From: a virus
Taxonomy: Duplodnaviria > Heunggongvirae > Uroviricota > Caudoviricetes
DNA length: 49,809 nt
IMG/VR virus record: IMGVR_UViG_2663762603_000001
Reading direction: 5' to 3' (one strand)
Program-made: the position numbers and the translations under genes
Shown here: one piece after another, positions 22,237 to 24,505 of the stretch
How positions within the stretch are numbered: position 1 is the stretch's first letter
How the letters are laid out: each line of letters begins with the position of its first letter
The notes under the pieces: generated by a model
Database searches by the model: none
What the model was told of the DNA's origin: nothing
The model's input: only the letters and a program-made list of their open reading frames with translations

Positions 22237-22276
22237 TTTTAATTTCACTGAAATTTAATACGTGACTTTCAGGAAA

Positions 22277-22303
22277 ATGCCTCGCAGATGCGGGGCATTT
22301 TTG
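22277..22303 (+). terminator. intrinsic terminator after lysis cassette
   Basis: ATGCCTCGCAGATGCGGGGCAT hairpin + TTTTTG. Confidence 0.6.
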
Positions 22304-22652
22304 TACAGGTATTTCACCGCGCACCGCAGCGCACTCAACCACGTCGAACCAAACCCTTTGGAATGAGCCTTTGAGTAGTCAGTTAGTGCTGGTGAGCCTT
22401 GACGGGCTGATCTCCTATGCAGCAAAGGTTCATCTCAAAGTAAGACGAACGCTATGACAAACCAAGATTCTATAGACCTATCTGATCTTCGTGGAATGGT
22501 CAGTTTTCCAGACAAAAGGTAATCACCATAGTCGTATGGCTATGAATCTTGTTGCTGCAGATAAGCATTTTGTGATTGAAGTGGTCAAATCTCTCAAATG
22601 CAGTAAAATGCAGTGCGCTATAATTCAATAACGGAGGGAGTAAGGAGAAGTC

Positions 22653-23273
22653 ATGAAAGATCAAGATGTTAGGTTCGCGGTGCATCATAAGCTTTTGAAA
22701 GAATCGCATTTAGATCCAGACTGCCTTGTGGTCGATGAATTTTCCATATCCCTTGGCGCCAGTAGAGCAGACATTGCTGTAATAAATGGTGTTATACACG
22801 GGTACGAGCTCAAAAGTGAATATGACTCTTTGGAGCGTTTGCCTCTTCAAATCAAGCATTATTCTTCTGTAATGGACAAGGTTACTCTTGTCGTAGCTGA
22901 GAAACACCTTGAGGGAGCATTAAAGTTAATCCCAGGTTGGTGGGGCGTTAAAACGGTTTCTGTTGGGCCAAAAGGCGCCATTCTTATAAAGCACATGCGT
23001 GGAGAAAAGCTTAATCGAAACCATGACACATTGATGCTCGCTCAATTGCTTTGGAAAGATGAATGTATCGACGTACTTGAACGATGGGGCTATTCCAAAG
23101 GAATCAAAAGCAAGCCCCGATTTGAGTTATGGAATATTATTGCGGAAAATATTCCAATAGCGAATCTCAGGCCTGAAGTCAGAACAGCCTTAAAGAAACG
23201 CGTAGGCTGGAAAGTTAAGGCTTGGCAGGCTGAGTCTGCGCCAACCAATAAAGCTGTCTCACGACTAACGTAA
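22653..23273 (+). CDS. PD-(D/E)xK-like nuclease-fold protein (candidate defence effector)
   Basis: 206 aa; strong SD (AAGGAG); candidate motifs VVDEF, RADIAV and YELK in the N-terminal 60 aa; TATAAT at 22619-22624 preceded by direct repeat AAATGCAGT x2. Confidence 0.7.
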   Translation: MKDQDVRFAVHHKLLKESHLDPDCLVVDEFSISLGASRADIAVINGVIHGYELKSEYDSLERLPLQIKHYSSVMDKVTLVVAEKHLEGALKLIPGWWGVKTVSVGPKGAILIKHMRGEKLNRNHDTLMLAQLLWKDECIDVLERWGYSKGIKSKPRFELWNIIAENIPIANLRPEVRTALKKRVGWKVKAWQAESAPTNKAVSRLT

Positions 23274-24282
23274 TATGGTGCGTATGTGCAACTTTACGCC
23301 ATTCTTTAGAGCCGCCAGATTTGTTAGCGCCTAATGATCTTTGGTAAATGTAATCATCCCCCCAACTAAATTTGGAGCCAAAGACTTGATACTCTGGCGA
23401 ACTAACAAGGGTAGTACATAAGTTTTTAGTTTGGCCCCATCCATTTCCTTTAACTGCGGTACCTTTTACAAAGATCCATGAGGTATCGTTCGAATATCTC
23501 ACTGAGACATACTGAGACATGAAGCGTGGGTCTACGCTCGTAATGGTAGAGCTAGCGGTGGGATAATCACTAAAACTTGGCGTTCTTCCATTGCTAAAAT
23601 TCTGTACTACGTACATCCAAAGATCGTATTCATGGCGCGGAATATGATGAACTTGATGTTGCGGTATCCCTGCCTGTGATGCCGGGTATGCGGTTGAAGA
23701 TAAAATCAAGTTTCTCCACGGAGCTTGGCCTGATAATGTGTTGACCATGCTTAATGCTTGTTGTTTTAAACTATCAGTTGCGTTTTGAATATCTCCAAAA
23801 TCAATGATTACATCAATTAAACTAGGATGAATATTTAAGTGGTTAACCAGACTTGTGAATTGGTGCCATGTCTGGGGGGTGATAGATATAGCGAGCCCAT
23901 TGATTAAGTTGCGTTGAACAGCATGTATATAGTTTGTTGAATATGCGGGAGAAACAACAGGGATAATTTCCTTACCATTTACTCTAGCATCTTGGATACA
24001 CATATCTAGAGGATGATGGCGGCTCGAACCATGTTTATCTAAATATTTAACATCCAGCAAAACAGGACGATTGGCTTTCCAGGATGCCGCAAGGTTAATA
24101 CCGAAGTCAGATAAGTAAGAACTCAAACTCTTCTTGTAGCATTCGTTTTCATAATCCCAGTCTATGTCTGGAATGGTAATGATCGGAGTAAAACCAGAGA
24201 GCGTAGTTTGATCTAAAAGCATCAGAGATTCATATTCAGCAGGCTTCCATTTCAGCTGTGGATAATATTGATGTTGACTCAT
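23215..24282 (-). CDS. 355-aa protein of unknown function, convergent with and overlapping the nuclease-like gene
   Basis: ATG at 24280-24282 with AAGGAG SD; 3' ends of the two genes overlap by about 59 bp; low-GC island. Confidence 0.7.
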   Translation of the reverse strand: MSQHQYYPQLKWKPAEYESLMLLDQTTLSGFTPIITIPDIDWDYENECYKKSLSSYLSDFGINLAASWKANRPVLLDVKYLDKHGSSRHHPLDMCIQDARVNGKEIIPVVSPAYSTNYIHAVQRNLINGLAISITPQTWHQFTSLVNHLNIHPSLIDVIIDFGDIQNATDSLKQQALSMVNTLSGQAPWRNLILSSTAYPASQAGIPQHQVHHIPRHEYDLWMYVVQNFSNGRTPSFSDYPTASSTITSVDPRFMSQYVSVRYSNDTSWIFVKGTAVKGNGWGQTKNLCTTLVSSPEYQVFGSKFSWGDDYIYQRSLGANKSGGSKEWRKVAHTHHITLVVRQLYWLAQTQPAKP

Positions 24283-24505
24283 TAAAACTCCTTAAAATCT
24301 TTACTTATCCTAAGTATAGTGTTATGGCGTAACGCCAATTGTTTTTATACACTTGAAAACATTGGGAAAAGTTGAGCTATATCTAAATTTACAAAATTGG
24401 ATGTTATAGAAATCGAGGTTTCAACTAGGCATGGAACTGCAAAATTTTTAATGCCTGCACGCGAAAGTCGTTGGCGGGTCCTTTCCGGTGATCCAGATCG
24501 TTACG

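What the first reader, a model, noticed from the sequence alone, without database searches (positions are those of the whole stretch)
22240..24400. Low-GC two-gene cassette (nuclease-fold protein + 355-aa unknown) with convergent, overlapping 3' ends, between the lysis cassette and cos
This is the slot where lambda carries the bor moron. Here about 2.1 kb of markedly AT-rich DNA holds a 206-aa protein with candidate PD-(D/E)xK nuclease motifs (VVDEF, RADIAV, YELK) and a 355-aa protein with no motif I can place. The two genes are convergent and their coding 3' ends overlap by about 59 bp, an uncommon arrangement that implies antisense coupling. Each has a strong SD; the nuclease gene has a TATAAT preceded by a direct repeat AAATGCAGT x2. 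A terminator (22277-22303) insulates the cassette from the lysis operon. This is my top candidate for an anti-phage defence or toxin/regulator system. From memory only, the pair may relate to families labelled 'sce7726' (nuclease-like) and 'sce7725' or P4 'beta'-like.
Basis: partly seen in the sequence, partly recalled or inferred. Interest (0 to 1): 0.8.

Follow-up and report, generated by a model that had tools for sequence, protein, structure and literature searches.

The report
Gop-less beta–cII nuclease defence cassette
Between the lysis genes and cos of this E. coli lambdoid prophage sits a mobile two-gene cassette, a predicted DNA nuclease plus a TIM-barrel partner, which is the stripped-down core shared by two proven anti-phage systems (P4 gop-beta-cII and PD-lambda-2); across bacteria these two genes are almost always joined tail-to-tail in one fixed reading-frame register.

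Summary
**Observation.** It is confirmed exactly.
- ORF A is 22653-23273 (+, 206 aa) and ORF B is 23215-24282 (-, 355 aa).
- The genes are convergent with a 59-bp 3' overlap, in DNA of GC 0.36-0.44 against about 0.50-0.57 in the flanks.

**Identity.**
- A is an sce7726 / P4-cII family protein. It has a PD-(D/E)xK fold, and E29, D40, E52 and K54 are invariant.
- B is a Pfam Beta_protein with a TIM-barrel fold.
- They are distant homologues of P4 cII (27% identity) and P4 beta (22% identity).
- The window has no gop and no PD-lambda-2 A or B.

**New here.**
- In about 130 loci from many phyla, the two genes are convergent immediate neighbours in every locus where both could be seen.
- In the 80-species survey, 75 of 77 pairs overlap, and every overlap is ≡ 2 mod 3.
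- The conserved anchor codons lie exactly 25 nt apart in 66 loci, and 64 nt (25 + 39) apart in this clade.
- The 59-bp figure is a recent accident: one TAG→TGG stop loss that is silent in beta.
- gop (P4) and HigB plus Xre-peptidase (PD-lambda-2) are accessory genes placed upstream of beta. PD-lambda-2-type loci also carry the cII-like gene as an undescribed fourth gene.

**Function.** Most likely a prophage-borne anti-phage module. This is inferred from homology and context, and no phenotype has been tested. The mechanism is unknown. I class it as a new variant of a known kind.

The parts
22240..22457 (+). Remnant of a P22-like Rz-rha intergenic region plus the first ~73 nt of rha. This is context and marks the left edge of the insertion slot.
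   Evidence: It is 86-87% identical to P22/BTP1 DNA directly downstream of Rz and running into the 5' end of rha. A 28-aa truncated ORF lies at 22371-22457.
22273..22302 (+). Intrinsic-terminator-like hairpin (13-bp stem, then a U-run) downstream of Rz.
   Evidence: dG -22.2 kcal/mol, z = -6.8, and 0 of 200 shuffles fold as well. It lies inside the P22-like remnant, so it is not part of the mobile cassette.
22582..22624 (+). Conserved promoter/operator block of the cII-like gene. It holds TGGTCA-16-TAAAAT and TATAAT (22619-22624), plus the direct repeat AAATGCAGT at 22596-22604 and 22606-22614 (10-bp period).
   Evidence: The block is conserved in Edwardsiella, Klebsiella, Pantoea, Pectobacterium and Providencia although their flanks are unrelated (alignment A4). 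See also the promoter scan and the repeat count.
22653..23273 (+). cII-like / sce7726-family gene (206 aa). It has a PD-(D/E)xK nuclease core (residues ~1-120), a C-terminal helical SAP-like domain (~126-182), and a 16-aa lineage-specific disordered tail (191-206).
23223..23225 (+). TGG (W191) at the position where close relatives have the cII stop codon TAG. This stop-loss site created the 59-bp overlap.
   Evidence: Junction alignment A7. The A->G change at 23224 is synonymous in beta (Ala353 GCT->GCC).
23215..23273 (.). The 59-bp antiparallel coding overlap (cII-like residues 188-206 against beta residues 337-355). Codon positions pair 1:1, 2:3 and 3:2.
   Evidence: The register (overlap = 2 mod 3) is shared by every overlapping pair surveyed. 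The RNA structure here is unremarkable (z about +0.5).
23215..24282 (-). beta-family gene (355 aa), a predicted TIM barrel with a C-terminal helical extension.
24342..24386 (-). Conserved promoter-proximal block of beta. On the - strand it reads TTAGATATAGCTCAA (24386->24372) ... TTTTCA-N5-TATAAA (24359->24344). The SD AAGGAG lies at 24293->24288.
   Evidence: It is conserved in six genera with unrelated flanks (alignment A5). Together with the cII block, it sets the mobile cassette at about 22565-24390.
24506..24517 (+). Lambda-type cos cohesive-end sequence GGGCGGCGACCT. This is context and marks the right edge of the slot.
   Evidence: Read directly from the sequence. Nu1 (24669-25241) and terminase A (25171-27141) follow. 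The same cos is found in IMG/VR loci that carry the identical cassette.

Best explanation
The cassette (about 22565-24390) is a self-promoted, horizontally mobile two-gene module of the beta / cII (Pfam Beta_protein / Phage_P4_cII, NCBIfam sce7726) pair family. It is carried as a moron in the Rz-cos slot of an E. coli lambdoid prophage.

**Shown**
- Family identity and predicted folds of both proteins.
- Intact nuclease catalytic residues.
- Independent conserved promoter blocks for each gene.
- Obligate co-occurrence of the two genes as convergent neighbours.
- A 3'-3' junction in one fixed codon register across phyla, with no room for a terminator between the genes.
- gop (P4) and HigB plus Xre-M78 peptidase (PD-lambda-2) are lineage-specific additions placed upstream of beta. 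The two-gene pair is the common core.

**Inferred**
- The pair acts in the lysogen as an anti-phage (superinfection-exclusion or abortive-infection type) system.
- The cII-like protein is a metal-dependent PD-(D/E)xK DNA endonuclease with a SAP-like DNA-binding tail, and it is the effector.
- The TIM-barrel beta protein is its obligate partner, gating it or sensing infection. The analogies are that P4 beta neutralises Gop, and that PD-lambda-2C is required for defence but not for neutralising the toxin.
- Because the genes converge with no intergenic space, each mRNA must extend antisense into the other gene. I propose this ties the two expression levels together (transcriptional interference and/or duplex RNA) and enforces co-inheritance.
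For: **Family identity**
- HMM matches and pairwise comparison with P4 beta and cII.
- RefSeq annotation of the identical DNA in 126 of 5,426 complete E. coli genomes.

**Folds and active site**
- High-confidence AF2 models.
- E29, D40, E52 and K54 are 100% invariant in 117 sequences, including P4 cII.
- beta is a TIM barrel with family-wide conserved acid, base and aromatic residues.

**Linkage**
- The cII-seeded survey covered 80 species genomes. In 77 of 77 loci with room to see it, the genes are convergent and adjacent.
- 75 of those 77 pairs overlap (11-158 bp, median 50), and every overlap is = 2 mod 3.
- The anchor-codon distance is exactly 25 nt in 66 loci and 64 nt in this clade.
- The beta-seeded checks agree: 41 of 41 IMG/VR loci and 4 of 4 distant beta representatives.
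- The same holds in phage Rac-SA53 and Gordonia phage Powerball.

**Defence link**
- P4 gop-beta-cII protects against lambda and P1 (PMC9122126).
- An ECOR59 homologue kills the cell when triggered by phage orf184 (bioRxiv 10.1101/2023.04.06.535777).
- PD-lambda-2C is needed for defence against lambda-vir (PMC9519451).
- Fourteen species loci carry PD-Lambda-2 A and B upstream of beta together with the cII-like gene.
- Neighbours include integrases, an RM system, HicAB, hok and a Gabija-like pair.

**Mobility**
- Low GC.
- The identical cassette occurs next to terminase genes only 66% identical.
- Promoter blocks are conserved across genera.
Against: - No phenotype exists for any two-gene (gop-less, HigB-less) form. 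The validated systems each contain an extra toxic component that this cassette lacks.
- P4 beta, the only member with genetic data, is a divergent outlier that lacks many family-conserved residues, so extrapolating from it is weak.
- PD-lambda-2 was cloned with only 396 bp beyond gene C. That is too short for an intact cII-like gene if one is present there, so the nuclease may be dispensable for that system's defence.
- One intact orphan cII-like gene exists without beta (L013). This argues against the nuclease being unconditionally lethal when alone.
- In this prophage the nuclease gene is co-oriented with Q-dependent late transcription and beta is antisense to it. Prophage induction should therefore raise the nuclease:beta ratio, which is awkward for a simple toxin/antitoxin stoichiometry model (inference).
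- The overlap could be a frozen accident. Once two genes overlap, only in-frame changes survive, and the overlap has been lost in P4 (27-nt gap with a terminator), in Vibrio (4 nt), and in L011 and L014.
- The overlap region shows no special RNA structure.
Confidence: 0.5

Rival explanations
1. The roles are reversed. The cII-like protein is the DNA sensor or regulator, using its nuclease fold and SAP-like domain to recognise phage DNA or to autoregulate at the AAATGCAGT repeats. The TIM-barrel beta protein is the enzymatic effector, for example a phosphoesterase or nucleotide-modifying enzyme.
For: - beta retains a conserved constellation of acidic, basic and aromatic residues typical of a TIM-barrel active site (E16, D77, D161, R216, D239, Y240, R262, Y263, H335, H336).
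- P4's cII was named as a regulatory gene.
- A conserved direct repeat overlaps the cII-like promoter.
- The PD-lambda-2 clone probably lacked an intact cII-like gene yet still defended.
Against: - The full PD-(D/E)xK catalytic set is 100% invariant in the cII-like family, which points to catalysis rather than binding alone.
- beta has only generic TIM-barrel similarity and no identifiable catalytic family.
- P4 beta has lost many of the conserved residues yet still works as Gop's antidote (PMC9122126 citing Ghisotti 1990).
Confidence: 0.15
2. It is a restriction-modification-like pair. beta chemically modifies self DNA (or a nucleotide pool), and the cII-like nuclease cuts unmodified incoming DNA. 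The convergent layout would be the one seen in many type II R-M systems.
For: - The nuclease fold is most similar to restriction, repair and CRISPR-ancillary nucleases.
- The strict pairing and near absence of orphan nucleases resemble R-M logic.
Against: - The DpdA/TGT hits are no better than dozens of unrelated TIM barrels, and beta has no cofactor-binding signature.
- P4 and PD-lambda-2 relatives behave as toxin-linked or abortive systems triggered by a phage protein, not as restriction.
- An orphan cII-like gene exists.
Confidence: 0.1
3. It is a selfish addiction (toxin-antitoxin-like) or lysogeny-regulating module with no anti-phage role in this prophage. The fixed 3' overlap would be a frozen historical accident that merely enforces linkage.
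For: - gop and beta were described as a likely TA pair, and P4 cII as a non-essential gene (PMC9122126).
- The register conservation is fully explained by descent once an overlap exists.
- The 59-bp length is demonstrably accidental.
- The cassette is spread by recombination among prophages.
Against: - Both experimentally tested relatives give phage resistance.
- The pair repeatedly lies in defence islands and phage moron slots.
- It persists at 100% identity in 126 E. coli genomes.
Confidence: 0.2

Closest known systems
P4 gop-beta-cII (PADLOC/DefenseFinder 'gop_beta_cll'; Rousset et al. 2022, PMC9122126)
   Same: - Both proteins are homologous over their full length: beta is 355 aa in both (22% identity), and cII is 27% identical with all nuclease residues kept.
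- beta and cII are convergent in P4 too, and the locus also sits next to cos, in a phage or satellite variable hotspot.
   Different: - The window has no gop anywhere, and neither do any of the 80 species loci.
- P4 has a 27-nt gap with an annotated terminator where the window has an overlap.
- P4 cII has an extra ~60-aa C-terminal extension.
- P4 beta lacks many family-conserved residues.
- The host element is a lambdoid prophage, not a P4 satellite.
PD-lambda-2 (Vassallo et al. 2022, PMC9519451)
   Same: - Component C is a beta-family protein. The window's beta hits the PD-Lambda-2_C HMMs at 4e-32.
- In 14 species genomes, PD-Lambda-2 A-B-C operons end in beta with the same convergent, overlapping cII-like gene.
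   Different: - The window lacks the HigB-like A and the Xre/M78 peptidase B.
- The HMM match covers only the C-terminal ~200 residues of beta.
- The published system is described as three genes with no cII-like partner.
MmcB-like / PD-(D/E)xK endonucleases (e.g. PDB 3dnx; Can2, NucS, type II restriction enzymes)
   Same: The best structural matches to the cII-like model share the same core fold and the same E...D...ExK motif order.
   Different: - Sequence identity is only 13-20%, and there is no sequence-level PDB match.
- The cII-like family has its own C-terminal SAP-like helical domain and an obligate beta partner.
Lambda bor and other lysogenic-conversion morons in the Rz-cos slot
   Same: The genomic slot is the same. 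The cassette is AT-rich, carries its own promoters and is flanked by a terminator, and beta is antisense to late transcription, as bor is (lambda gene order from general knowledge).
   Different: The proteins are unrelated. This is a two-gene convergent unit rather than a single lipoprotein gene.

Membership tests
beta / cII (Pfam PF14350 + PF26915, NCBIfam sce7726) gene pair | The protein matches the cII / sce7726 family model above its curated cut-off. | tested here: met
   NF033832 scores 184.1 bits against a cut-off of 70, E = 2.3e-54. PADLOC 'cll' gives 3.8e-31. Homologues carry the precomputed PF26915 Phage_P4_cII domain.
beta / cII (Pfam PF14350 + PF26915, NCBIfam sce7726) gene pair | The partner matches Pfam Beta_protein over its full length. 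| tested here: met
   PF14350 scores 190 bits against a cut-off of 27, covering residues 6-342 against profile positions 1-342 of 342.
beta / cII (Pfam PF14350 + PF26915, NCBIfam sce7726) gene pair | The two genes are immediately adjacent and convergent, with a 3'-3' junction in the family register (overlap = 2 mod 3). | tested here: met
   The 59-bp overlap gives 59 mod 3 = 2. The anchor-codon distance is 64 nt, i.e. 25 + 39.
beta / cII (Pfam PF14350 + PF26915, NCBIfam sce7726) gene pair | An intact PD-(D/E)xK catalytic motif in the cII-like protein. | tested here: met
   E29, D40, E52 and K54 are present and invariant across the family. The fold is confirmed.
P4-type gop-beta-cII defence system | A gop gene upstream of beta and co-transcribed with it. 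| tested here: not met
   tblastn of P4 Gop against the whole window gives nothing better than E = 0.8. There is no ORF of 20 aa or more with gop-like features between beta and cos or upstream of cII.
P4-type gop-beta-cII defence system | beta and cII homologues are present and convergent. | tested here: met
P4-type gop-beta-cII defence system | It confers resistance to phages (lambda and P1 in the type system). | not testable with these tools
   This needs plaque assays. Only the P4 three-gene system has been tested (PMC9122126).
PD-lambda-2 | HigB-like component A and Xre-HTH/Peptidase_M78 component B upstream of the beta-like component C. | tested here: not met
   tblastn of A and B from L048 and L059 against the window finds no hit at E <= 0.1. 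beta is preceded only by its promoter and then cos.
PD-lambda-2 | A beta-like component C. | tested here: met
   PD-Lambda-2_C HMMs give 4.4e-32 and 2.2e-25, but over residues ~132-349 only.
   No NCBIfam release 20 model matched the window's beta or five other beta proteins, including one from Sorangium. Papers list sce7725 and sce7726 proteins as neighbours. RefSeq now names these proteins 'beta family protein'.

The most novel reading that the evidence does not exclude
The beta / cII-like pair is a widespread, stand-alone two-gene immune (or conflict) module. It is the ancestral core onto which Gop or HigB/peptidase toxins were later bolted. Its function would depend on obligate convergent transcription: two protein-coding mRNAs that are each other's antisense at a junction held in one codon register since before the divergence of bacterial phyla. 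That would make it a new regulatory class of toxin/partner system, and it would mean that PD-lambda-2 and gop-beta-cII have so far been studied without recognising their shared core.
Probability: 0.25. Interest if true: 0.8.

Novelty: new variant of a known kind. Interest (0 to 1): 0.6.

Why it matters
- **It links two validated systems.** P4 gop-beta-cII and PD-lambda-2 are experimentally proven E. coli defence systems with unknown mechanisms, and they have been treated as unrelated three-gene toxin-antitoxin-like systems. This cassette and the survey around it show that they share a two-gene core: a TIM-barrel beta protein and a PD-(D/E)xK cII-like nuclease.
- **The core is common and probably under-annotated.** The beta family has 2,447 clusters at 50% identity and is found from Proteobacteria to CPR bacteria and actinophages. 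The pair usually occurs alone. Detection rules that require gop or HigB would probably miss it; I could not check those rules here.
- **It gives a minimal experimental system.** The cassette is 1.8 kb with native promoters and is present in 126 complete E. coli genomes. It can be used to ask what the core does.
- **It poses a clean evolutionary and regulatory question.** Why has a convergent 3'-3' gene overlap kept one reading-frame register across phyla?

Tried and rejected
- **gop in the window or elsewhere.** tblastn and phmmer found none.
- **PD-lambda-2 A/B in the window.** None found.
- **An sce7725 NCBIfam model.** It matched no beta protein.
- **A specific enzymatic family for beta.**
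  - A profile search of PDB sequences was empty.
  - The afdb50 library was not available.
- **A special RNA structure or terminator in the overlap.** z is about +0.5 on both strands.
- **A + strand hairpin at 24325-24337 as the stop for cII read-through.** It is weak (dG -6.1, z = -0.8), so I make no claim for it.
- **A broad beta-seeded locus scan.** The diverse alignment A6 was too variable to give search patterns. I used A1 plus four sampled distant representatives instead.
- **The original ECOR42 PD-lambda-2 locus.**
  - The E. coli protein was not among the listed hits.
  - The plasmid hit inspected had HigB plus peptidase but no beta.
  - Whether ECOR42 has a cII-like gene therefore stays open.
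- **Ghisotti et al. 1990.** The paper is not held, so statements about it come second-hand via PMC9122126.
- **Mechanistic literature.** Searches on sce7725, sce7726, PF14350 and gop-beta-cII found only annotation mentions.
- **The AAATGCAGT repeat as significant by count.** It is not. Its weight comes from conservation.
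Full report
**1. Observation**

The window is a lambdoid E. coli prophage. It carries a holin (20580), an endolysin (21248-21781) and Rz (21763-22236). Then come the region in question, a lambda-type cos (GGGCGGCGACCT, 24506-24517), Nu1 (24669-25241) and the large terminase (25171-27141).

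The two ORFs are exactly as reported.
- ORF A is 22653-23273 (+, 206 aa) and ORF B is 23215-24282 (-, 355 aa).
- The genes are convergent and share 23215-23273, which is 59 bp.
- GC falls to 0.36-0.44 across about 22200-24600, against 0.50-0.57 on both sides.
- Each gene has AAGGAG 5 nt before its ATG.
- TATAAT lies at 22619-22624, and the repeat AAATGCAGT lies at 22596-22604 and 22606-22614.
- The hairpin at 22273-22302 is a strong terminator candidate (dG -22.2 kcal/mol, z = -6.8).

**2. What the proteins are**

ORF A:
- It passes the curated NCBIfam cut-off for the sce7726 family (184 bits against 70). It also hits the PADLOC 'cll' model, i.e. P4 cII (3.8e-31), and phrog_984.
- It is 27% identical to P4 cII.
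- In an alignment of 53 diverse homologues, and again in 117 that include P4 cII, the residues E29, R38, D40, N45, E52, K54, S55, D58, R62 and Q66 are invariant.

ORF B:
- It matches Pfam Beta_protein (PF14350) over its full length with E = 8e-56. It also hits PADLOC PD-Lambda-2_C (4e-32, C-terminal half only), PADLOC 'beta' (3.5e-10) and phrog_9159.
- It is 22% identical to P4 beta over its full length, and both proteins are 355 aa.
- Its model (pLDDT 93) is a TIM barrel with only generic PDB similarity.
- Neither family has a sequence relative in the PDB.
- RefSeq already names the identical genes 'sce7726 family protein' and 'beta family protein' in 126 of 5,426 complete E. coli genomes.

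**3. What is known about relatives**

- P4 carries gop(+), beta(+) and cII(-) next to its cos. beta and cII are convergent there too, separated by 27 nt containing an annotated terminator.
- Rousset et al. showed that gop-beta-cII protects against lambda and P1. They cite Ghisotti 1990 for Gop being toxic without beta (PMC9122126).
- An ECOR59 homologue kills the cell when phage orf184 is expressed (bioRxiv 10.1101/2023.04.06.535777).
- In PD-lambda-2, the beta-like component C is required for defence but not for neutralising the toxic Xre-peptidase B (PMC9519451).
- I found no mechanistic work on either protein family.

**4. What this cassette lacks**

- No gop homologue exists in the window.
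- No small ORF with gop-like features lies upstream of either gene.
- PD-lambda-2 A and B are also absent.

It is therefore a two-gene form, which fails one defining feature of each validated system.

**5. Comparative anatomy (the main new result)**

The survey seeded on cII:
- It covered one genome per species and returned 381 relatives. I examined the best 80.
- Using locally built HMMs, every locus with room to see it (77 of 77) has a beta gene immediately 3' of the cII-like gene and convergent to it.
- 75 of the 77 pairs overlap, by 11-158 bp with a median of 50.
- Overlap length depends only on the two stop codons. Every overlap is = 2 mod 3, so all pairs share one antiparallel register (codon positions 1:1, 2:3, 3:2).
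- I also measured between conserved anchor codons, Trp186 of cII and His336 of beta. The distance is exactly 25 nt in 66 loci, which come from Proteobacteria, Firmicutes, Myxococcota, Acidobacteriota, CPR and others.
- In the window's enterobacterial clade the distance is 64 nt, which is 25 plus 13 codons.
- In the main family there is no room for a terminator. Each protein's conserved C-terminal segment is encoded opposite the partner's variable tail.

Checks seeded on beta agree:
- 41 of 41 IMG/VR loci have the convergent partner.
- 4 of 4 distant beta representatives have it, with overlaps of 56, 56, 44 and 80 bp.
- Phage Rac-SA53 has a 41-bp overlap and Gordonia phage Powerball an 89-bp overlap.

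Exceptions:
- Gaps instead of overlaps occur in P4 (27 nt), Vibrio (4 nt), L011 (14 nt), L014 (39 nt) and L131 (14 nt).
- A few loci have a frameshifted beta (L050, L066, L129).
- One locus has an intact orphan cII-like gene (L013).

**6. The 59-bp figure**

Relatives at 77-85% identity overlap by 11 bp. Their cII stop codon, TAG, corresponds to TGG at 23223-23225 in the window. This is a single A->G change that is synonymous in beta (Ala353). The resulting 16-residue tail is predicted to be disordered. So the length is accidental, while the junction itself is ancestral.

**7. Accessory genes**

- In 14 of the 77 loci, beta is preceded in the same operon by PD-Lambda-2_B (PADLOC 1.8e-150; Peptidase_M78 plus an HTH domain) and PD-Lambda-2_A (HigB-like; 1e-34 to 1e-41). 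PD-lambda-2-type loci therefore carry the cII-like gene as a fourth gene.
- The published clone kept only 396 bp beyond gene C. That could not hold an intact cII-like gene if ECOR42 has one, and I could not retrieve that DNA to check.
- A few loci have small membrane/coiled-coil ORFs in the position gop occupies (L053, L068, L085).
- gop itself has no homologue outside P4.
- Most loci, including this clade, have nothing upstream of beta.

The pair is thus the constant core, and the upstream toxins are add-ons.

**8. Regulatory regions and mobility**

- Both genes have promoter-proximal blocks conserved across six genera with unrelated flanks. For cII this is 22582-22624, which includes the TATAAT and the 10-bp-spaced repeat. 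For beta it is 24342-24386.
- These blocks set the mobile unit at about 22565-24390.
- The segment to its left, 22240-22457, is a remnant of the P22-type Rz-rha intergenic region plus the 5' end of rha. The terminator belongs to that remnant.
- The identical cassette lies in the same slot of prophages whose Nu1 and terminase are only 51-66% identical.

**9. Mechanism**

Shown:
- The identity, folds, conserved catalytic residues and independent promoters.
- The obligate pairing and the junction without a terminator.

Inferred:
- The function is anti-phage.
- The nuclease is the effector, and beta is the gate or sensor.
- Convergent transcription couples the expression of the two genes.

Caveats:
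- No two-gene form has been tested.
- P4 beta is a divergent outlier.
- PD-lambda-2 may defend without the nuclease.
- One orphan nuclease gene exists.
- Here the nuclease gene is sense to late transcription and beta is antisense to it. Induction should therefore skew the ratio of the two, which a simple stoichiometric antitoxin model does not predict.

Rival readings are reversed roles, an R-M-like system, and a selfish addiction module with a frozen overlap. They are scored separately in the Rival explanations section.

**10. Verdict**

The cassette is a new variant (gop-less, two-gene) of a known kind. The added value is the family-wide fixed-register 3'-3' junction and the unification of gop-beta-cII and PD-lambda-2 around one core.

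Noticed in passing
L040, L048, L057, L059, L061, L064, L066, L067, L069, L074-L077, L083 (beta at about 5.5-6.7 kb in the 10.5-kb loci): Complete PD-lambda-2-type operons (HigB-like A, Xre/M78 peptidase B, beta-like C) are followed by a convergent, overlapping cII-like nuclease gene. The published three-gene description does not include this gene. The original clone kept only 396 bp beyond gene C.
   Followed up: partly
window 22240-22457: This 218-bp segment is 86-87% identical to P22/BTP1 DNA from just after Rz into the first ~73 nt of rha. It leaves a 28-aa truncated ORF (22371-22457). The cassette occupies the place of the rest of rha.
   Followed up: yes
L013:5001-6810 (Xenorhabdus koppenhoeferi): This is the only intact cII-like gene found without beta. 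It is followed co-directionally by a Ser/Thr-kinase-like fragment (HRDLKPANI motif) and a PP2C-like phosphatase ORF, with no beta remnant detectable by tblastn.
   Followed up: partly
L053:2214-2750, L068:6605-7087, L085:3152-3649: Small ORFs (161-179 aa) with a hydrophobic segment and coiled-coil character sit directly upstream of beta, in the position gop occupies in P4. They show no sequence similarity to gop and may be analogous membrane effectors.
   Followed up: no
L093 and L100 (IMG/VR) compared with window 20580-27141: The cassette is 100% (beta) and 98.5-99.5% (cII-like) identical and lies in the same Rz-cos slot. The flanking Nu1 (51-66%), terminase (66%) and holin (70-99%) differ, so the cassette has been exchanged among mosaic lambdoid prophages.
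   Followed up: partly
L003:3413-11439 (Providencia); L133:1-2384; L089 (Gordonia phage Powerball): The pair lies in defence-island-like contexts. In Providencia it is next to an integrase, a PDDEXK_4 protein and an MvaI/BcnI-type R-M system. In L133 it is next to a Gabija-like OLD-TOPRIM ATPase plus a UvrD helicase. In the actinophage it lies between the integrase and a HicAB pair.
   Followed up: no
window 16946-17021 and 17031-17107: There are two phage-borne tRNA genes, tRNA with anticodon CAT and tRNA-Arg(TCG). RefSeq annotates the first as tRNA-Ile in the near-identical prophage of strain DA33133, where the two genes lie downstream of the Q antiterminator and DNA methyltransferase genes.
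   Followed up: no
window about 18000-18600: A second AT-rich patch (GC 0.33-0.38) lies just upstream of the 623-aa SASA-family esterase ORF (18636-20507). By colinearity with DA33133, it holds an IraM-like anti-adapter gene on the opposite strand.
   Followed up: no
window about 8.7-11.3 kb (by colinearity with L002:6469-9044): Another likely moron block lies in the early region. It holds a SMEK-domain protein, a class I SAM methyltransferase and a hypothetical protein, with hokD nearby. I did not examine it.
   Followed up: no
PMC8203672 (E. coli clinical-isolate proteomics): A protein annotated 'sce7725 family protein' was detected by mass spectrometry in E. coli isolates and correlated with aminoglycoside resistance. 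The protein is therefore made in uninfected cells, if 'sce7725' is an older RefSeq name for beta-family proteins, which I could not confirm. The subfamily is unknown.
   Followed up: no
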